64,000 bases of DNA from a virus. Under the pieces are notes generated by a model that was not told the origin of the DNA, searched no databases, and was given only the letters and a program-made list of their open reading frames with translations. Location of the stretch: positions 2,502 to 66,501 of IMG/VR virus record IMGVR_UViG_3300047472_000037. One strand, given 5' to 3'. How positions within the stretch are numbered: the stretch's first letter is position 1; each line of letters opens with the position of its first letter. Positions 2,398 through 23,316 of this stretch are shown piece after piece. The position numbers were made by a program, and so were the translations under genes.

Positions 2398-4701
2398 TTA
2401 ATTCCAGCCGTCCGATCTCGAACCGCCGTATCCACTGCTATCATTCTTATCGTTATCCGATTTGTTTGAAGCAGAAGAACCGTTTGCAAATCCTCCACCA
2501 GAGGTAGATGGTCCATTAGCACCAGCAGATGAAGCGAAGCCACCTCCCGTACCTTGACCACCAGTCGAACTATCCGACTTGTTTCCACCATTATTGGAAG
2601 AGTTTGAATTACTTTCATTCTGACCACCTGTTTGAGATGGACCAGAGAAGTGATTAGAGCCATCAGCAGCAGCTGTAGGACCAGCAGAGAAGCCACCAGC
2701 AGTCGATGACGCGTTGGTCAATGAAGGGGTAGCCATAGGTGCAGGACTTACTGCTTGAGCAACTGGTTGGGATTGATACTCAGCCAGAGTGCCGAAGGTA
2801 TGGGCACCAATCTGTTGAGAGTTTGTCATCTGTGCACCCCAACCGGGATTAATAGTATTTGCATGATAGTTTGTGAACCCTTGGTTATTCTCATCAGATG
2901 AGTAGTAACCCTTGACTGCACTATCGTAAGCAGTGGGGTTCAAGTTGTAATTCTTTTGGGCTGTATCAGCAGCAGCTTTGTTATTCCAAGTAGAGTACTG
3001 ATTAGGTGCTCCGATAACGCCAGCCATAGTGCCATACTTTCCTACACGATTATCCATCGTCTGAGCGATACCATAAGACTCTTTAGTGAAATCTTCAGAA
3101 CCGATCTTAGTCTTAGACGGATCAATCTCACCAGCCAATGTCATAGCCATCATTCTACGGTCATCATCGGACAGAGCATTGTAACGATCCAGAGATTTTG
3201 ATTGAGCCATGTTTTGTAATTGCGGGGTGGAAAATCTGTCTTGACCAGCAAAAGAATCAGGTGTGGAAAACCTTTCCTGCCCGGCCATTGTTTGAGTAGA
3301 AGCGGCAAGATTTTGAGCATTGATCTCTTGGTCAGTAGGACGAGCAGTTGGTGTAGGTGCCAAACGGCTTTCCGTTACACCTTGTGTAAACCACCCTGGG
3401 GCTTTATCCATATTATATTCTGAACGATTATACATAGCTGCAATACCAGCAGCATTTACACCTTGTCCTGCTTCCACAGAATTAATAGGGTTACGACGAT
3501 CTGTTGCGATATGTAGTGATTGGTCTCCATAAGTACCAATTTCCATAGCACCGGACATAATAGCCCGTTCGGTCATATCCCTTTTCTCATCATCAGTCAT
3601 ACCTTTGGTGGAAACATCGAAGGCTTGTCCAGTTTGGTGGAATGATTTACTAGCACCACCAATGGCAGCATTAACTTTTGAACTACGATACGCAGAAGAA
3701 ACATTTATACCACCAGGGGTATTAGTTGCTAGTGCACCCATTGCTTCTTTTGTTCTATCAGTTAATCCGGTAGTTACATCGCCTCGTTCAGGATGCGAAT
3801 AGTTAACTCCACTAAGGTCAGTATTATCATCCACCGAATTAACGTGAGTACCATTCTCGATGGAGTTTTTAAATGAGGGAGACAAGTCCATGAGACCTTT
3901 ACCCTTTGGCTTACTAGACGCTACACCCATACCAGTTGCGATATGATCTGTAGTATCCTCCTTGGCAGTGTTATAAGAAGAGCCGAAAACATTACCTAAC
4001 ATCTTTGAGCCGATACTCTGTTCCATTTTGGGAGCAGTTAGCCCTTGGGCGCTAAAGTTATTCTGAGCATCCTTAACATCTTGTCGAGCTGCTTCTGCCA
4101 CCGAGCCGGGATTAACAAGAGACCGATTACGAGCCTCATTAGGGGTCATCATAGTACGGCCAGTTTTGTCTGAAACTTCGAAGCCTACAGGAACCGTCTC
4201 ATTTTGGTCAGGATTCTTGGGATTAGAAATGTTTACGTTAGCAACGAGACCTTTGTTATCCTGCAAGAAACTACCAAGATTAGTCTTCTGAGGAAGTCCT
4301 AGAACCTGTCTGGCATCTTGTACAGCCTGACGATTATTAGCATTCATAGCTAGACTAGCAGCTTTACCTACCATACCGACAGGTCCAGGGAGAGCGCCCA
4401 TAGCCCCTATGAAGCCCGGCTTGTGAGCATAACCGAAGTTATTATCTACATTCCTTGGCTGAGCAGTAGAACCCTGTGGGGCAAATCCCTTTTGACTAGA
4501 GTCAGACTTAAAGATAGTATCGTACTGCTTCTGTTGTTCTTCAGGGAGTTTAACTTCCCCAGATGATACTTGACTCTGATCCTTTACGTCATAGTAAGGA
4601 AGGTCTGCATAATCGATAGGGTTGCCAGTCTGAAGATCAAGATATTGAGGTTCATATGTATTACCCGAAGGATCATAATATTGTATTGCAACGTTTGCCA
4701 T
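2398..4701 (-). CDS. Virion-associated peptidoglycan hydrolase (peptidase M15-like plus SleB/hydrolase_2-like domains)
   Basis: SAYRS...SFHQTGQAFD...SLHI (M15 Zn peptidase); LAGEI...NR...QYSTWN...YHANTINPGW...IGAHTF (hydrolase_2-like); Gly/Ser-rich tail. Confidence 0.65.
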   Translation of the reverse strand: MANVAIQYYDPSGNTYEPQYLDLQTGNPIDYADLPYYDVKDQSQVSSGEVKLPEEQQKQYDTIFKSDSSQKGFAPQGSTAQPRNVDNNFGYAHKPGFIGAMGALPGPVGMVGKAASLAMNANNRQAVQDARQVLGLPQKTNLGSFLQDNKGLVANVNISNPKNPDQNETVPVGFEVSDKTGRTMMTPNEARNRSLVNPGSVAEAARQDVKDAQNNFSAQGLTAPKMEQSIGSKMLGNVFGSSYNTAKEDTTDHIATGMGVASSKPKGKGLMDLSPSFKNSIENGTHVNSVDDNTDLSGVNYSHPERGDVTTGLTDRTKEAMGALATNTPGGINVSSAYRSSKVNAAIGGASKSFHQTGQAFDVSTKGMTDDEKRDMTERAIMSGAMEIGTYGDQSLHIATDRRNPINSVEAGQGVNAAGIAAMYNRSEYNMDKAPGWFTQGVTESRLAPTPTARPTDQEINAQNLAASTQTMAGQERFSTPDSFAGQDRFSTPQLQNMAQSKSLDRYNALSDDDRRMMAMTLAGEIDPSKTKIGSEDFTKESYGIAQTMDNRVGKYGTMAGVIGAPNQYSTWNNKAAADTAQKNYNLNPTAYDSAVKGYYSSDENNQGFTNYHANTINPGWGAQMTNSQQIGAHTFGTLAEYQSQPVAQAVSPAPMATPSLTNASSTAGGFSAGPTAAADGSNHFSGPSQTGGQNESNSNSSNNGGNKSDSSTGGQGTGGGFASSAGANGPSTSGGGFANGSSASNKSDNDKNDSSGYGGSRSDGWN

Positions 4702-8296: not shown

Positions 8297-10237
8297 TTAG
8301 TAACCGAAGACTGAGTCTGATGGGATGTAACGATGAGCTGGTTTAGTACCCCAATCCAGAGGATTAGAAGCTCTCGGACGGGACATAATCCCATATCTCA
8401 AAGCATCATAACTGTGGTCGGAAGTATAACGAGAATCGATATCATCCTCACCATCCGGGTTAGTTGGAATGGACGGGATGTCAGCGATCACTTGTCTACA
8501 GTTCTCGAAGAAGATAATACCGGGAGACTCTTCACCGAATACGTTCTCTTTGACCTTTAGAAGCTCATGGAGACGGTTCTTGCCAGCGGCACGACTACCC
8601 TTGCTCCGATCACTCTCTCGCCACCTACAGCCCGCTGCGATCATTTCCTCAGCGATGGATGGTCCGTAGTGTCCTCGTTGATGCCATACAGATGAGTCAA
8701 GAATACCGTATGATACGTTATCATCTTTTTCCATCTCAAGGACTTTAGCAGCGAGAGCAACACCGGTCATTCCTTTTCCGTAGAGTTCACGATAGACATA
8801 AAGCGTATCGTCAGCAGGATCAATTGCAAACCAAAGGACGCAAGCTGGAGAAGAATAACCATAGTCAGCAGCTCTAAAGCGACGCCAAGAAGGAGGGATA
8901 GCAAATGGAGGGCGGACGTGATACTTAGGATTAAACTCGGCAAAGGCAGCCCCTTCTACGATTGACCAATCGCCTTCAAGGAGTTTCCTTCGTTCGTTTT
9001 CAGGAAGGCCATGTAGAGACCTTTCGTATACGCCGTCGGCTGCTAGGTACTTATTGTCACGCAATAGAGCAGGAATGAAGCGACGTTTGAACAACGGCTT
9101 TCCTGCAAGAACTGGATTTGCGTAGTCATCTGGATACCGTAGTACTTCCCCTGTTTCGATATCTGTGGCCCAGAAAGCCTTATTAGCTACTTCTGGATCA
9201 ATGAACATTTTCTTAACCCAATGATGGCCGGGGCCGCCAGGGTTGGTTGTAGCCCTCATGGAGAGGCACTTCTTAAGTGTAGGATCTGCCGTACGTAGAC
9301 GAGACTTCAAATATGTGTAGGCAAAAGGAGTAGCATACTGAGTAAGCTCATCCATACCGATCCAGGTAAAAGCCTGTCCCTGATAGCGCATAACGTCTTC
9401 ATCACGATCTAGATAAGTGATCCAGAACTTTGCACCAGAAGGAAAAACCCACATGGAGTCTTTATCTTTCCATTGGGCTTTCGGCCAGATTTTTTTATAA
9501 AGCTTTTGGGTTTCCCATTTTAGTTCTCTGAGTTCATCGTTCGTACGACGTAACAGAAGACCAACAAAATTAGGATTATCAAAATATCTCATGGGATCGG
9601 CGATCATCGCGAACGATTTCCCGCCTCCGGCTGCGCCGCCGTAGAGGACTTCTTCTTCTGTAGCAGAAAGAAACCAAGTTTGTGGACCTTCGTTAGGTTC
9701 GAAGGCAATAGAGATATCAGTAGGGACTGGCGGTTTGTGGACCTTAGCGGCTTGATCTTCTGGATGATGCCACCCGCCAGTAGCCTTCTTCTTGACAGGA
9801 GCGCCCTCTGGGAAGTCTTCCTCTTGGAGCCTACCCCTATCAGCCTCTAGTCTCTCAAGCTTCTTCTGTGACCTTCTAGCCATTGCACGAGCCTGTTGGA
9901 TCTGTGCTACTTCTTTACTGAGTGGCTTACGAGTTCTGATCTTAGCTGGATAGTTCCTGTAGGGATTTCTGTGTTTCTTATAAAGATTGGATAGGGTCTG
10001 GTGGACCATGCTGGATAGGAGTTTCTGAGAGACCCATTCGGTAACATCCCTCCAAGAATTGCCAGCTTCGATATGGTCGAATGCCTGTTCGAGGACAGCA
10101 ATAACTTCTGGGTTCGGGAGGATCTCATAGGGATCGTTCGGGTTAACCATGTAACCATAACCGATCTTACCGTAGGGGATTTTCCTCTTCCAAGCAGGCC
10201 ACCTCTCTCTCAGTTTCTCTGAGAGCTGTTCTGTCAT
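8297..10237 (-). CDS. Terminase large subunit with N-terminal extension
   Basis: Walker A YGGAAGGGKS, Walker B IGMDE, motif III ATTNPGG, nuclease ADYG and DHSYDALRY. Confidence 0.93.
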   Translation of the reverse strand: MTEQLSEKLRERWPAWKRKIPYGKIGYGYMVNPNDPYEILPNPEVIAVLEQAFDHIEAGNSWRDVTEWVSQKLLSSMVHQTLSNLYKKHRNPYRNYPAKIRTRKPLSKEVAQIQQARAMARRSQKKLERLEADRGRLQEEDFPEGAPVKKKATGGWHHPEDQAAKVHKPPVPTDISIAFEPNEGPQTWFLSATEEEVLYGGAAGGGKSFAMIADPMRYFDNPNFVGLLLRRTNDELRELKWETQKLYKKIWPKAQWKDKDSMWVFPSGAKFWITYLDRDEDVMRYQGQAFTWIGMDELTQYATPFAYTYLKSRLRTADPTLKKCLSMRATTNPGGPGHHWVKKMFIDPEVANKAFWATDIETGEVLRYPDDYANPVLAGKPLFKRRFIPALLRDNKYLAADGVYERSLHGLPENERRKLLEGDWSIVEGAAFAEFNPKYHVRPPFAIPPSWRRFRAADYGYSSPACVLWFAIDPADDTLYVYRELYGKGMTGVALAAKVLEMEKDDNVSYGILDSSVWHQRGHYGPSIAEEMIAAGCRWRESDRSKGSRAAGKNRLHELLKVKENVFGEESPGIIFFENCRQVIADIPSIPTNPDGEDDIDSRYTSDHSYDALRYGIMSRPRASNPLDWGTKPAHRYIPSDSVFGY

Positions 10238-10861: not shown

Positions 10862-11136
10862 TAAATGGTATTCTCCTTTGGTCTCCAAGCCGTAAAGCGG
10901 AGCTTTCCTTAAATTCGAAATCTCATAAATCACTAGTACTAACAGCTCAATGACTGAAGTCATTATCGTATGTTAGATGAAATCAAAGTTGTTGAAGTAT
11001 ATTCAACTTGAAGTGTTCTATGATCGAGAGTTCATTTGATGCGTGGTTCTATTATTTAAGTCTTAAACCATTCAAGCTAAACTCAAATCTTTAGTATCAA
11101 AGTTGTTTTCTACCTAACTTGTTAAACTATAGTATA

Positions 11137-11165
11137 ATTATACCATTTTTCAAAAAGCTTGTCAA
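11137..11165 (-). promoter_or_regulatory. Sigma70 promoter for the packaging/structural operon
   Basis: Minus strand TTGACA-N17-TATAAT, perfect consensus with TG extension. Confidence 0.8.
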
Positions 11166-11710
11166 GTAAAAAATACACTGAAACAGAAGAAAAGTGAATT
11201 ATTATTTAAAATAGGTAATAGAATACCATTCAAGTAACAAAATGTACTTCAAGTCAGTACTAATCGTAGCTATTTAGCCTTATATTTGTAACAAAAATAA
11301 AATAGAGCCTATTGGTTATGGTACTTTTATCTATGGTTTTTACATTCTTCTTGAATATACAGTTCTTTTTGTTATCTGATCTTCTTGATTAGACACCTAA
11401 GTTATTGAAAAATATGTAGGAATGGTATACACCATATGTACCCCTCCCCCTTGGTCCAGCCTGCCTGTTCAAAGTAACTCGAAGTATAACTGAGGGGGAT
11501 TGGGAGAGAAGTGAGTACCACAAAGAGTATCATTACTTAACGTTACTGTAGCCAAGTATACTAATACCTGGAAGTACTATCATCGTAGTATCTTGAAGTA
11601 TAGTAATACTTGAAGGGGTATGTCATTGAAGTATAGTTCTTATAGGACGCCAGAAGATAAATACAACCTATGGTTCATTGACAGAAGGGATAACTGCAAC
11701 CGTAAGGTTG

Positions 11711-11739
11711 TTGAGCCGTTAGGAGAACTGTGATACTAT
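11711..11739 (+). promoter_or_regulatory. Candidate early sigma70 promoter
   Basis: TTGAGC-N17-TACTAT with TG extension. Confidence 0.4.
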
Positions 11740-11939
11740 TATGTGTTTCTTCTGTTACACAACTCTGGGTTAATGGTGGATGCAACCTCTGATTAGTTTC
11801 TTTTCTTCTGTTAATATGCATCGCGTGTATGCGTTCTTAATTCCCATGGTTTTCGCGATGAATAGCGGGAGCTATGAGAACGTTTTAGTGGGTATCCTGG
11901 GTTGAATGAAATTATTTTTACAACTTATGTCGATTTCTC

Positions 11940-11967
11940 TTGCATCGTCTGATGGGTTTGGTATTGT
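11940..11967 (+). promoter_or_regulatory. Candidate sigma70 promoter for the putative large ncRNA
   Basis: TTGCAT-N16-TATTGT with TG extension. Confidence 0.45.
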
Positions 11968-11971
11968 GGGG

Positions 11972-12673
11972 ATAACGAAAGACGAAAGCAGTGGTTGCCT
12001 TAGCTCTTCCCTTTACGGGTGGATTGCCACGATAGGCTGATAGCTCGCTCTTTGTTAATCGACCATAGTTTCGAGCTGCTAAGCGGTGGGTTATCCCAAG
12101 TCCGTAAAAGCTAATCGAGTGCATCAACGCGAAGTGTTGCTCTGTCAGGGTTTAGTGCAGTGAAGAATGACATTATCAGAAGTTCCCTACTCTTACAATG
12201 TGGGGAATGAGGAAGGTAGATCAGTCTGGAAACGTGATCACCAAACGTTGAACCTTTACCGGTTTCAGCGAAAGGGGAAGATTTGCGACCTGTAACGGTT
12301 CGGTTTCTGTCATCGCAAGGTGGCATTCTGGATAGCTGAAGGCTCTAGGGTTGAATGCTTGAAGGCGAACATGATGAGGACGCACGGGGTATTCACGCCT
12401 CGTAACCAGCAGTTAGGCCCGAACTGTAGCAGAGTTGCTATTGGCCGCTAGATGAGAGACGAAGACAACGAATTTGCTTTGTTGTGTCCGGTTTCTCTTC
12501 GAAAGCTAAAGCTTAGGCTTTGGTTAGTACAAGGGGATAACCGCCACTAAGCTTTGATGCTTACACAAGGTTGTTTGTTGATTTCACCTTACGGTTAAGT
12601 TTCGATCCTTTCCCTAACTGGTCAAGATGAATAATCTTGAAGGTAAAGCAAGTGCATACAAACTTTTCGTTAT
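11972..12673 (+). ncRNA. Candidate large structured ncRNA (~700 nt)
   Basis: No plus-strand ORF of 60 aa or more; ends pair (ATAACGAAA 11972-80 / TTTCGTTAT 12665-73); several G-U-containing hairpins and long-range helices. Confidence 0.5.
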
Positions 12674-12937
12674 ACTACTATACGCCTATTCGTCTATTTG
12701 CTTTGTAACAAGGGCGCAAAGTAGGGGAAATGACAGTTTCTAGCTTTTCTCGCTAGCATGAAATCATCCAATATGGATGGACTGATTAGCATTTTAATGG
12801 CTTCAGGACGTTCGCAAGAGTACATGAATAAATCGGACCCTAGACATTGGTGCTGAACCATGATAGGATTGTGTCATGTTGAGAGAACGTCTCGAAGCTT
12901 TTATCGGGTTAATCATTTGCACGATGGGGAATGTGCC

Positions 12938-13099
12938 ATGTCAAAGAAGAATAAGCCTCTCTCACAAGCAGAGATTGAGCGTCGTAATATCGTCAAGATG
13001 AAATCTGCGCGTGATGAAAAGATCATGCGGGATATGGGCACTTTCAACTCTATCGGCAATGGGCATTCTCACTGTGCCGTTATGATCGAAAGGCGATAG
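12938..13099 (+). CDS. Small early protein
   Basis: MSKKNKPLSQAEIERR..., GGGGA SD. Confidence 0.5.
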   Translation: MSKKNKPLSQAEIERRNIVKMKSARDEKIMRDMGTFNSIGNGHSHCAVMIERR

Positions 13100-13101
13100 T
13101 C

Positions 13102-13188
13102 ATGGCTGAACTGATTACATCAACCTCAACCCTCTTTGGCCTTGCTGCTATCTTTGTGGCATGGTTTCGGGTAAGGAGGTACTTGTGA
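13102..13188 (+). CDS. 28-aa single-TM peptide
   Basis: MAELITSTSTLFGLAAIFVAWFRVRRYL, read by hand. Confidence 0.45.
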   Translation: MAELITSTSTLFGLAAIFVAWFRVRRYL

Positions 13189-13268
13189 TGTCAGATGATG
13201 CACCATTCATGGTTGTAGTCATGTTCGGGCTTCTTGTAGCTCTTTGGCTCTTCCAAGGCCAATTCTAA
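13188..13268 (+). CDS. 26-aa single-TM peptide
   Basis: MSDDAPFMVVVMFGLLVALWLFQGQF; AAGGAGGT SD; TGATG coupling. Confidence 0.55.
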   Translation: MSDDAPFMVVVMFGLLVALWLFQGQF

Positions 13269-13278
13269 GGAGTATGAC

Positions 13279-13353
13279 ATGCTTCTAAGGGATGCAATCT
13301 TAGGTACGACACTGATGTTCTCTGTGTTCTGTATCTGCCTGCTCATGATCTAG
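13279..13353 (+). CDS. 24-aa single-TM peptide
   Basis: MLLRDAILGTTLMFSVFCICLLMI; AAGGAG SD. Confidence 0.5.
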   Translation: MLLRDAILGTTLMFSVFCICLLMI

Positions 13354-13459
13354 GTATTTCACTGTGAACCCTTTCGTCACTGTTAGGGCTCATAGGGCAA
13401 CACCGCCCGGTCACCCTCAAAACCCCTTCGGGAATAGGGTTAATCAAAGGACTACCGCA

Positions 13460-14092
13460 ATGGCTAAGGCTGTAACAACTAAATCTCCGCTCGCAATCAT
13501 CGACGCCAAGATTGCATCCATCAAGACACGCGGCTTGCAACTCCGTAAGGACTGCCACGAAACGCTTGTCATGATCATGGATCACTACATCGAACATGGT
13601 GATTTCACCCGTCTGCCTATGCTCACGGACGCCATCAAGTCAGCACTCGGTTCGTCTCTGTCTCAGGCCGCAAACCAATGGGTTTCTGAGTTCGTCCCGT
13701 CCCTGAAGTGGGAAAAGACCGTTGGTGCCTTCGAACACGTCAAGGGCGTCAAGAAGGAAATCCGTGATCTGGAAAACTACAAGGTCACTGCCAAGGGTGA
13801 CGGGCCGGCCAATGTCTTCACTGGCAATGCTCGTGACCTGCCCTTCTACGAACTGGAGCGTGTTGCCAAGCAGGAACCTTTCGACCTGCAGAAGGCCATT
13901 CTCTCGCTCGTCGGCCGTGCTGAACGTGAGTATGAGAAGGCAATCAAGGAGCACACTGAAGCTCCTGTCAACTCGGCCCAGATTGCTGCCTTGAAGTCCC
14001 TTGGCGAACATATCGCCGAATACAAGCCGGAGGACGGCAAGGCTGAAGAAACTCAGAGTGAGGAACAGGTTGAAGCCGTCAAGGCCGCCTAA
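13460..14092 (+). CDS. Early protein of unknown function, probably highly expressed
   Basis: Start MAKAVTTK at 13460 after AAGGA; many C-ending codons; followed by terminator. Confidence 0.75.
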   Translation: MAKAVTTKSPLAIIDAKIASIKTRGLQLRKDCHETLVMIMDHYIEHGDFTRLPMLTDAIKSALGSSLSQAANQWVSEFVPSLKWEKTVGAFEHVKGVKKEIRDLENYKVTAKGDGPANVFTGNARDLPFYELERVAKQEPFDLQKAILSLVGRAEREYEKAIKEHTEAPVNSAQIAALKSLGEHIAEYKPEDGKAEETQSEEQVEAVKAA

Positions 14093-17136: not shown

Positions 17137-17209
17137 TCTCTGATAGCTCAGTTGGTAGAGCATGCGCCTGTTAAGCGTACGGTCCTAGGTTCGAGTCCTA
17201 GTCAGAGAG
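17137..17209 (+). tRNA. tRNA-Asn (GTT); no encoded CCA (followed by CTA)
   Basis: Acceptor TCTCTGA/TCAGAGA, D arm GCTC-AGTTGGTA-GAGC, anticodon loop CTGTTAA, T arm CTAGG-TTCGAGT-CCTAG. Confidence 0.92.
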
Positions 17210-23241: not shown

Positions 23242-23316
23242 TCTCCTTTAGTTTAATTGGCAAAACGTGTGCCTTTGGTGCATGAGATCCAGGTTCGACC
23301 CCTGGCGGGAGATCCA
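23242..23316 (+). tRNA. tRNA-Gln (TTG) with encoded CCA
   Basis: Acceptor TCTCCTT/CGGGAGA (one mismatch), D arm GTTT/AAAC, anticodon loop CTTTGGT, T arm CCAGG-TTCGACC-CCTGG, then T-CCA. Confidence 0.85.

What the first reader, a model, noticed from the sequence alone, without database searches (positions are those of the whole stretch)
11940..12673. Candidate ~700-nt structured non-coding RNA at the start of the early arm
Seen: a promoter-like TTGCAT-N16-TATTGT precedes 700 nt with no sense ORF. The ends pair (11972-80 / 12665-73). Hairpins include TGTCATC-GCAA-GGTGGCA (12308-25), AGCTAAAGC-TTAG-GCTTTGGTT (12504-25) and TCAAGAT/ATCTTGA (12622-40). Long-range helices GGTTATCCC/GGGATAACC (12089/12534) and GCATCAA/TTGATGC (12121/12554) cross each other, suggesting a pseudoknot or alternative folds. 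G-U pairs point to the plus-strand RNA. Established: phages carry large ncRNAs such as GOLLD and ROOL. I cannot assign this one to a family; it may be new.
Basis: partly seen in the sequence, partly recalled or inferred. Interest (0 to 1): 0.72.

Follow-up and report, generated by a model that had tools for sequence, protein, structure and literature searches.

The report
Structured non-coding leader RNA of phage early genes
The gene-free stretch at the head of this phage's early genes does hold a conserved, folded RNA that matches no catalogued family, but it sits about 240 bases further right than reported and ends in a long stem shared by related phages.

Summary
The window is a complete 66.5-kb phiM6/HMO-2011-like phage genome. 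About 2 kb without a credible gene (10963-12937) separates the packaging arm from the early arm.

The conserved structure is on the + strand at 12177-12915, not 11940-12673. It has two parts:
- A ~610-nt domain (12177-12790) has only one homolog, an IMG/VR contig (nhmmer E 7e-7). The pairwise consensus fold beats column shuffles (z -5.0 to -6.9), while ten control runs gave +0.9 to -2.9.
- A ~133-nt rod-like stem module (12783-12915) ends 22 nt before the first early start codon. A covariance model finds it in 7 phage lineages. 83% of cells pair, against 56% in shuffles (0 of 500 reach the observed value), and 12 of 13 outer-helix pairs change on both sides. Variants of the rod occur in cultured Rhizobium phage RHph_N3_13 and in phiM6.

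Nothing in Rfam 15 matches. No conserved ORF exists, even with a stop codon reassigned.

Best reading: a ~1.2-kb structured, untranslated early leader RNA whose terminal stem is an RNase III-type processing or regulatory site. That function is inferred. Expression is untested.

The parts
11712..11740 (+). Candidate early promoter, TTGAGC-N17-TACTAT. If used, transcription would start near 11747.
   Evidence: It aligns with TTGACA-N18-TATGAT of the relative L008/L130 (nhmmer alignment). L130, L131 and L015 have matches of 10-11 of 12 in their surveyed leader starts; only L130's was aligned to this site. Only 8 of 12 here (my count). Inferred, not shown.
11819..11840 (+). Small G+C-rich hairpin island (CGCGYGYRTGCG) early in the leader.
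   Evidence: The island is found in the window, L129 and L130 and lies inside the nhmmer block 11677-11876.
11940..11967 (+).
   Evidence: Present. 7 of 12 to consensus (my count), not listed by the scan, and in a region with no conserved fold.
12177..12790 (+). Upstream structured domain, shared only with one IMG/VR phage contig (L011/L086/L129).
   Evidence: nhmmer E 7e-7 against 750 kb of relatives. Three exact islands are shared: GGAAACGTGATCA, AGGGGA..ATTTGC and ACGGGNTATTCACGNCTCG. Consensus fold for 12160-12785: z -5.0 on + and -4.8 on -. No conserved peptide.
12182..12208 (+). Hairpin H1, with a loop containing UUACAA in both phages.
   Evidence: Two pairs change on both sides and one on one side. 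The conserved loop was read from the alignment.
12273..12615 (+). Central sub-domain closed by long-range helix PA (12273-80 AGGGGAAG with 12608-15 CUUUCCCU). It contains helix PC (12349-53 with 12403-07) and hairpin c (12385-90 with 12397-402).
   Evidence: PA has 8 bp, 2 changed on both sides and 1 on one side. PC has 2 of 5 changed on both sides. Hairpin c has 1, plus conserved G-U pairs. Sub-window 12261-12623: z -3.95 on + against -1.92 on -. PA has only 0.15 probability in the window's own ensemble, and PC and hairpin c 0.02 or less.
12622..12640 (+). Hairpin d, UCAAGAU-GAAUA-AUCUUGA.
   Evidence: The homolog has AUGAGUA-GAAAA-UACUCAU, so 5 of 7 pairs change on both sides.
12783..12915 (+). 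Clade-wide rod-like stem module. P0 is 12783-90 with 12908-15. P1 is 12795-12813 with 12885-12903. The core (12814-12884) holds an inner helix (12822-27 with 12874-79) and a capped hairpin (12839-70).
   Evidence: Fold z -3.89. Covariance model R1 scores 63.5 bits here and finds 7 lineages. Covariation counts. P0 is the best duplex between the flanks in all 7.
12926..13099 (+). Shine-Dalgarno-like GGGGA (12926-30) and the first small early ORF (ATG 12938, 53 aa).
   Evidence: Read. Not conserved in the homolog, where a 31-aa membrane-like ORF follows the module instead.

Best explanation
The plus strand of about 11750-12937 is a ~1.2-kb untranslated, heavily folded 5' leader of the phage's early operon, built from modules. 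A lineage-specific ~610-nt structured domain (12177-12790) is followed by a ~133-nt rod-like stem (12783-12915) that ends 22 nt before the first early start codon.

Shown here: RNA-type conserved structure on the early-gene strand, no coding capacity, and the same position in related phages.

Inferred: the host RNA polymerase starts near 11747. The long P0-P1 double-stranded stem is a processing or regulatory site of the RNase III kind, as in the T7 early RNA sites and the lambda N leader. Cleavage there would cut the leader from the early mRNA, set the 5' end and translation of the first ORFs, and leave the upstream domain as a stable RNA.
For: - Architecture. An ORF-poor gap of 2.3-3 kb lies between the packaging and early arms in all 6 IMG/VR relatives examined and in phiM6 and RHph_N3_13.
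- Non-coding. No frame opens even with a stop codon reassigned. No peptide is conserved with the homolog.
- Upstream domain. The consensus fold of window versus L129 gives z -5.23 (100 shuffles) and -6.94 after realignment. Six coding control runs gave +0.92 to -2.92. Three non-homologous alignments of equal identity gave -0.23 to +0.12, and the non-conserved 5' part -0.75.
- Stem module. Model R1 finds it once per lineage in 7 lineages, on the early-gene strand, two of them not in the seed (L015 59.6 bits, L007 39.7 bits).
- Covariation. 83.1% of cells pair against 55.8% in shuffles (0 of 500). 21 of 28 pairs change on both sides, 12 of 13 in P1. Slid controls pair at 36-47%.
- Independent folds. 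All seven fold alone into the same rod. Five core-only folds gave z -1.8 to -4.8, and four folds with flanks gave -3.9 to -7.0.
- Strand. 21 G-U against 7 A-C cells in the module. The + strand fold is 48 kcal/mol lower than the - strand. The central sub-domain gives z -3.95 on + and -1.92 on -.
- Position. In 5 of 7 lineages an ORF with a Shine-Dalgarno-like motif starts 25-74 nt after the model hit.
- The stem matters more than the core. RHph_N3_13 and L050 keep the same flanks and a covarying P1 around a different core. phiM6 keeps only the stem, capped by a 5-nt loop.
- A second sub-lineage (L130/L131/L132) has its own conserved structured domain at the same place: z -5.35 on +, -2.57 on -.
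Against: - No expression data of any kind.
- The upstream domain rests on two sequences, so covariation cannot be tested statistically. The whole-domain z-score is nearly as strong on the minus strand (-4.6 to -4.8).
- Helices PC and hairpin c, which the comparison favours, have probability 0.02 or less in the window's own thermodynamic ensemble.
- The promoter is weak here (8 of 12, my count) and is only inferred.
- The covariation counts were made on an alignment fitted to the model.
- RNase III cleavage is an analogy from stem length and position. The conserved unpaired nucleotides of the core (CAAUAGUC, UAAAUC, GUGAG) are not needed for an RNase III site and hint at a further ligand or protein partner.
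- One coding control run reached z -2.9.
Confidence: 0.5

Rival explanations
1. A stand-alone, trans-acting large non-coding RNA gene. It would have its own promoter and ends and act on host or phage factors, for example in host takeover or as an anti-defence decoy. That would make it comparable in kind to GOLLD or ROOL.
For: - Size and structural conservation.
- The upstream domains differ between sub-lineages while keeping conserved folds, the cassette-like turnover expected of arms-race functions.
- This partly overlaps the best explanation if processing at the stem releases the domain.
Against: - No terminator-like site anywhere in 10900-13500 (0 found).
- Conserved structure runs without a break into the stem module and up to the first start codon.
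- No Rfam family matches.
Confidence: 0.25
2. The 133-nt module is a ligand- or protein-sensing cis-regulator, riboswitch-like or a translational operator, that controls the first early ORFs. The upstream 610 nt would then be a separate matter.
For: - Variable closing helices surround conserved unpaired nucleotides: CAAUAGUC, UAAAUC, GUGAG, and a GGAUA loop in 3 of 7 lineages.
- It lies 22 nt before the start codon.
Against: - No terminator or sequestering of the Shine-Dalgarno-like site was found (reading).
- The closing stem is far longer (about 25 bp, P0 plus P1) than is usual for aptamers (my knowledge).
- The core is replaced in RHph_N3_13 and L050 and absent in phiM6, while the stem is kept.
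- The downstream ORFs are unrelated between lineages.
Confidence: 0.1
3. The conserved inverted repeats work at the DNA level, for example as a replication origin or a single-strand priming signal, and not as RNA.
For: - Consensus-fold z-scores are also strongly negative on the minus strand (-4.6 to -4.8).
- The region lies between divergent arms, next to the presumed pac region.
Against: - G-U cells outnumber A-C cells 21 to 7 in the module.
- Large energy advantage of the plus strand.
- Helices span up to 335 nt, which is implausible for duplex DNA.
- No iterons or direct repeats inside 11940-12900.
- Fixed orientation and position relative to the first early ORF in 7 lineages.
Confidence: 0.07
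4. The interval as reported (11940-12673) is just spacer DNA whose hairpins are chance products of composition.
For: - Local z-scores are mostly between +1.4 and -1.5.
- The end pairing and crossing helices are at chance level.
- The 5' third shows no conservation.
Against: - The homolog has exact 13-19-nt islands and a consensus fold far beyond the controls.
- Hairpin 12622-40 has 5 of 7 pairs changed on both sides.
Confidence: 0.05

Closest known systems
RNase III processing stems in phage early transcripts (T7 early sites such as R0.3; the stem in the lambda N leader). Recalled from textbook knowledge, not from a call.
   Same: A long, irregular double-stranded stem (P0 plus P1, about 25 bp with internal loops) lies in the untranslated leader a few tens of nucleotides before the first early gene. 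It is kept by compensatory change, not by sequence.
   Different: No cleavage data. The stem encloses a ~70-nt core with conserved unpaired nucleotides in 7 lineages. The leader ahead of it is over 1 kb long and itself structured.
GOLLD and ROOL, large non-coding RNAs often found in phages or prophages
   Same: Several hundred nucleotides, phage-borne, multi-helix, function unknown.
   Different: No match to these or to any of the 4227 Rfam 15 models at the gathering score or at E up to 10 in the window gap, or up to 5 in six relatives. Only 2 members of the large domain are known. It is contiguous with an mRNA leader rather than a free-standing gene.
HK022 put RNAs, cis-acting antitermination RNAs in early leaders (recalled)
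   Same: A structured RNA in a phage early leader that acts in cis on expression of the early operon.
   Different: As I recall, put elements are two ~35-nt stem-loops close behind the promoter. Here the conserved module lies at the far end of a 1.2-kb leader and is a single ~133-nt rod. Not tested.
The ORF-free gaps of Sinorhizobium phage phiM6 (MH700630) and Rhizobium phage RHph_N3_13 (MN988507)
   Same: Same genome position, between the packaging arm and the first early gene, and same size (about 2.5-2.7 kb). TerL is 67% identical. A P0-P1 stem lies about 40-45 nt before the first early gene. RHph_N3_13's flanks (GAATTGTAATTC and TTGGTGCAATTC) are identical to those of lineage L132.
   Different: Model R1 does not reach significance in either. 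The core is different (RHph_N3_13, L050) or missing (phiM6). Neither has the 610-nt domain of the window. The phiM6 genome announcement, whose main text I read in full (PMC6256558), does not mention the gap.

Membership tests
Any Rfam 15 family, including GOLLD, ROOL, riboswitches, ribozymes and RNase P | Covariance-model score at or above the family's gathering score | tested here: not met
   Whole window at gathering score: only 2 tRNAs, at 17137 and 23242. Window 11000-13400 at E up to 10: three chance-level hits, none in 11940-12915. Six relatives at E up to 5: nothing in their leaders.
New family A: early-leader stem module (model R1) | Outer helix P1 closing a core with CAAUAGUC, UAAAUC and GUGAG and a capped hairpin; score with model R1 | tested here: met
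   Window 12803-12895 scores 63.5 bits, E 1.1e-10. 10 hits in 89 sources, which are 7 distinct sequences. The window's core is the most divergent (AAGAGUA in place of AAUAGUC).
New family A: early-leader stem module (model R1) | Base pairs kept by compensatory change | tested here: met
   21 of 28 pairs change on both sides. 83.1% of cells pair against 55.8% in shuffles (0 of 500) and 36-47% when the partner is slid. Caveat: the alignment was fitted to the model. Independent single-sequence folds agree.
New family B: 610-nt upstream domain (window plus L129) | Sequence homology plus a conserved fold | tested here: met
   nhmmer E 7e-7. Consensus-fold z -5.0 to -6.9 against controls of +0.9 to -2.9. 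Only 2 members, so no covariation statistics are possible.
RNase III substrate | About two turns (20 bp or more) of near-continuous double-stranded RNA, internal loops allowed | tested here: met
   In the window P0 has 8 bp and P1 17 bp. Comparable rods in the other six lineages.
RNase III substrate | Cleavage in vivo or in vitro that depends on RNase III | not testable with these tools
   No RNA data were available.
Riboswitch | An expression platform (terminator, or sequestering of the ribosome-binding site) coupled to a conserved aptamer core | tested here: not met
   0 terminator-like sites in 10900-13500. The Shine-Dalgarno-like site lies outside P0. The core is dispensable in phiM6.

The most novel reading that the evidence does not exclude
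phiM6/HMO-2011-like phages begin infection by transcribing a 1.2-1.7-kb non-coding RNA. A conserved processing stem releases exchangeable, fast-evolving structured 'cassette' domains: the window/L129 type, the L130-132 type and others. These would act in trans as decoys or inhibitors of host factors such as defence systems, so that the cassette turnover reflects an RNA-level arms race.
Probability: 0.2. Interest if true: 0.8.

Novelty: new variant of a known kind. Interest (0 to 1): 0.6.

Why it matters
Phage genomes are tightly packed, yet this clade reserves 1.2-1.7 kb at the very start of its early operon for RNA that encodes nothing and keeps its fold.

The work yields two new candidate RNA families. 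The small one is supported by covariation in 7 lineages. It has variants in cultured rhizobiophages, so transcript mapping and host RNase III mutants can test it directly.

If the upstream domains prove to be released, trans-acting RNAs, they would be a new class of early phage effectors made of RNA. If not, this is still an unusually long structured leader, and a case study in how an untranslated RNA of that length survives in a bacterium.

Tried and rejected
Search for more homologs of 12177-12915:
- megablast and blastn against 50,697 phage records. Only short A+T-rich pieces of 11119-11489 match.
- Three island patterns in IMG/VR gave 3, 35 and 4 stretches. Only the L011/L086 contig is real; the rest fail nhmmer and second-motif checks.
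- One island pattern in JGI metagenomes gave 0, and in GTDB genomes 0.
- Neighbouring 242-aa protein: 0 relatives in IMG/VR as a single sequence. As an alignment, 3 loci in metagenomes and 4 in IMG/VR, one of them new (L131).
- A stem-module pattern in IMG/VR gave 4 stretches. Three were already known, and L135 is a chance match (15.5 bits, P1 not formed).
- Profiles of the two upstream-domain types do not detect each other.

Other attempts:
- Public RNA runs: none was listed. This is no evidence either way.
- MAFFT alone could not align the stem module. It worked after trimming each sequence to fixed arms.
- Recoding and small-peptide readings were rejected.
- An internal loop-to-junction kissing pair (GGAU with AUCC) was considered by eye and dropped, because it is not conserved.
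- Literature. One search found the phiM6 announcement, whose main text I read in full. For some searches (HMO-2011 with non-coding RNA; bacteriophage, structured RNA, early operon and leader) I saw only the listings, and none describes this element. Supplementary files were not consulted.

Full report
CONTEXT. The window is bases 2502-66501 of a 66,501-bp IMG/VR virus record with direct terminal repeats, rated complete. The packaging genes read leftwards: the large terminase at 8297-10237 and a 166-aa ORF ending at 10963. The early and replication genes read rightwards: GATase and amidoligase genes, primase-helicase, DNA polymerase A and ribonucleotide reductase. The closest cultured phages by terminase are three Rhizobium RHph phages and Sinorhizobium phage phiM6 (67% identity), then Roseobacter CRP phages and HMO-2011 (51-57%). 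By inference the host is an alphaproteobacterium.

Between the two arms lies 10963-13364 with no ORF of 90 aa or more. An alignment with relatives puts the true start of the first sizeable early gene at ATG 13460. Tiny ORFs with Shine-Dalgarno-like sites begin at 12938. So about 11520-12937 has no credible coding frame. That remains true if any one stop codon is read as a residue.

THE OBSERVATION. Several items do not exceed chance:
- The promoter-like site matches 7 of 12 consensus positions (my count) and is not listed by the scan.
- The 9-bp end pairing is matched or beaten by 52% of 200 random 36-nt segments.
- The two crossing long-range helices have pair probability 0.013 or less.
Local 150-nt windows are mostly unremarkable.

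RELATIVES. phiM6 and RHph_N3_13 have the same 2.5-2.7-kb unannotated gap at the same place. So do all 6 of the nearest IMG/VR relatives that carry enough flanking DNA. By blastn only two A+T-rich elements (11116-11193 and 11388-11518) are shared. The second lies next to the point that corresponds to position 1 of phiM6, which its authors set at a predicted pac site (PMC6256558, main text read in full).

nhmmer then found one colinear homolog of 12177-12913: IMG/VR contig IMGVR_UViG_3300046507_000113, held as L011, L086 and L129. The upstream part alone gives E 7e-7 against 750 kb. Its neighbouring early protein is also the closest to the window's (57-59% identity). Exact islands of 13-19 nt are shared only by these two phages. 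Scans of IMG/VR, JGI metagenomes and GTDB genomes found no third member.

CONSERVED STRUCTURE, LARGE DOMAIN. I folded the pairwise alignment (47% identity) with RNAalifold and compared it with column shuffles.
- The + strand gave z -5.23 and the - strand -4.61 (100 shuffles). After realignment the + strand gave -6.94.
- Three coding regions of the same two phages, on both strands, gave +0.92 to -2.92.
- Three alignments of non-homologous leaders at the same nominal identity gave -0.23 to +0.12.
- The 5' part, 11520-12176 against its positional counterpart, gave -0.75.
- Without the 3' module, 12160-12785 still gives -5.0 on + and -4.8 on -.
- The central sub-domain 12261-12623 favours the + strand: -3.95 against -1.92.

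Helices anchored on the conserved islands carry changes on both sides: PA (12273-80 with 12608-15), PC (12349-53 with 12403-07), hairpin c (12385-402) and hairpin d (12622-40, 5 of 7 pairs). No peptide is conserved. The revised interval 12177-12916 folds at -240.1 kcal/mol with z -4.92. The minus strand gives -192.4 and z -4.40, and the homolog z -4.02.

Two limits apply. There are only two sequences. PC and hairpin c are disfavoured in the window's own ensemble.

CONSERVED STRUCTURE, STEM MODULE. Weak similarity between L129, L130 and L131 led to a module just before the first early ORF. Five lineages fold independently into one shape, with z -1.8 to -4.8. I built covariance model R1 from a trimmed alignment with a structure I specified.

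Searched over 845 kb, R1 found 10 hits, which are 7 distinct sequences. Each lies on the early-gene strand. Two are outside the seed: L015 (59.6 bits) and L007 (39.7 bits). The counts are 83.1% of cells paired against 55.8% in shuffles (0 of 500), 21 of 28 pairs changed on both sides, 12 of 13 in P1, and 36-47% for slid partners. G-U cells outnumber A-C cells 21 to 7.

A further outer helix, P0 (7-8 bp), is the best duplex between the flanks in all 7 lineages. With flanks added, L015, L007, L131 and the window fold into the full rod with z -7.0, -5.9, -6.4 and -3.9. In the window, P0 is 12783-90 with 12908-15, and P1 is 12795-12813 with 12885-12903. The start codon at 12938 follows 22 nt after P0. 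In 5 of 7 lineages an ORF with a Shine-Dalgarno-like site starts 25-74 nt after the model hit, and these ORFs are unrelated to one another.

R1 is not significant in phiM6, RHph_N3_13 or L050. Even so, RHph_N3_13 and L050 carry the same flanks as lineage L132 and a covarying 11-13-bp P1 around a different core. phiM6 has only the stem, capped by a 5-nt loop. The double-stranded rod therefore appears to be the constant feature and the core the variable one.

REST OF THE LEADER. A promoter-like site at 11712-11740 aligns with a near-consensus site in L130. L131 and L015 also have near-consensus sites at the start of their leaders. If it is used, the leader is about 1.2 kb here and about 1.4-1.7 kb in relatives. 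The leaders are C-poor (18-20% C), with G-over-C skew of 0.08-0.16, higher than the downstream coding DNA in 6 of 7. L130, L131 and L132 share their own ~600-nt conserved domain just ahead of the module, with z -5.35 on + and -2.57 on -. That domain is not detectably related to the window's.

INTERPRETATION. Shown:
- a non-coding plus-strand region with conserved RNA-type structure at 12177-12915;
- a new stem-module family with covariation in 7 lineages;
- no Rfam membership.

Inferred:
- it is the untranslated leader of the early operon;
- the P0-P1 rod is an RNase III-type processing or regulatory site, by analogy with T7 early RNA and the lambda N leader (recalled);
- the upstream domain may be released as a stable RNA.

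The rivals are a free-standing trans-acting RNA gene, a ligand- or protein-sensing operator, and a DNA-level element. They are weighed in their own sections of this report. Expression is wholly untested.

VERDICT. The finding is real but misplaced by about 240 nt at the 5' end and cut short at the 3' end. It is better described as a modular structured early leader than as a discrete 700-nt gene. It is new as a family, of a known general kind, and testable in cultured rhizobiophages.

Noticed in passing
window 11116-11193 and 11388-11518: Two A+T-rich elements are the only parts of the gap conserved by blastn across the IMG/VR relatives, phiM6 and the RHph phages. The second maps to phiM6 positions 27-128, next to the predicted pac cleavage site set as position 1 of that genome. 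This suggests the packaging start lies near window 11515.
   Followed up: partly
window 11165-11137 (- strand): A perfect consensus promoter, TTGACA-N17-TATAAT with an upstream TG, points towards the packaging arm. It lies inside the first conserved A+T-rich element.
   Followed up: no
window 10992, 11593, 11626; L129 about 2290-2325: The 12-mer TTGAAGTATAGT occurs twice exactly plus one 11/12 copy at 10992. Similar CTTGAAG(A/T)A repeats stand at the matching place in L129. It may be a phage-specific operator or promoter motif.
   Followed up: no
window 11746-11757, 11802-11813 and inverted at 11179-11194: TTTCTTCTGTTA is repeated twice directly after the candidate early promoter. It occurs again as an inverted copy 550-600 nt to the left, beside the leftward promoter. 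It could be a shared regulator-binding site for the divergent promoters.
   Followed up: no
window 12938-13354: Four tiny ORFs with Shine-Dalgarno-like sites: 53 aa, then 28, about 26 and 24 aa. The last three are hydrophobic. The 24-aa ORF region aligns with a 31-aa membrane-like ORF in L129. The ORF at 13364 probably starts at ATG 13460.
   Followed up: partly
L130 2847-3412, L131 2925-3538, L132 3100-3712: A second, unrelated ~600-nt conserved structured domain lies at the same position in three other lineages (z -5.35 on +, -2.57 on -). It includes an invariant hairpin, UCGCCCGUAAGACGGCGG or similar.
   Followed up: partly
L005 about 1985-2000, L003 about 4245-4260 (- strand), L015 and L050 just before the first early gene: A small hairpin containing AGGUAGUA(U/C)CCU lies directly before the Shine-Dalgarno-like site of the first sizeable early gene in RHph_N3_13, phiM6, L015 and L050. 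I did not see it in the window.
   Followed up: no
L126 and L127 (metagenome contig Ga0058695_1000002, 129,572 bp): One contig holds the same early region twice, about 68 kb apart. It is probably a two-genome concatemer assembly of an L008-like phage.
   Followed up: no
window 17137-17209 and 23242-23313: Two tRNA genes lie in the early arm. The phiM6 announcement reports no tRNAs for that phage.
   Followed up: no
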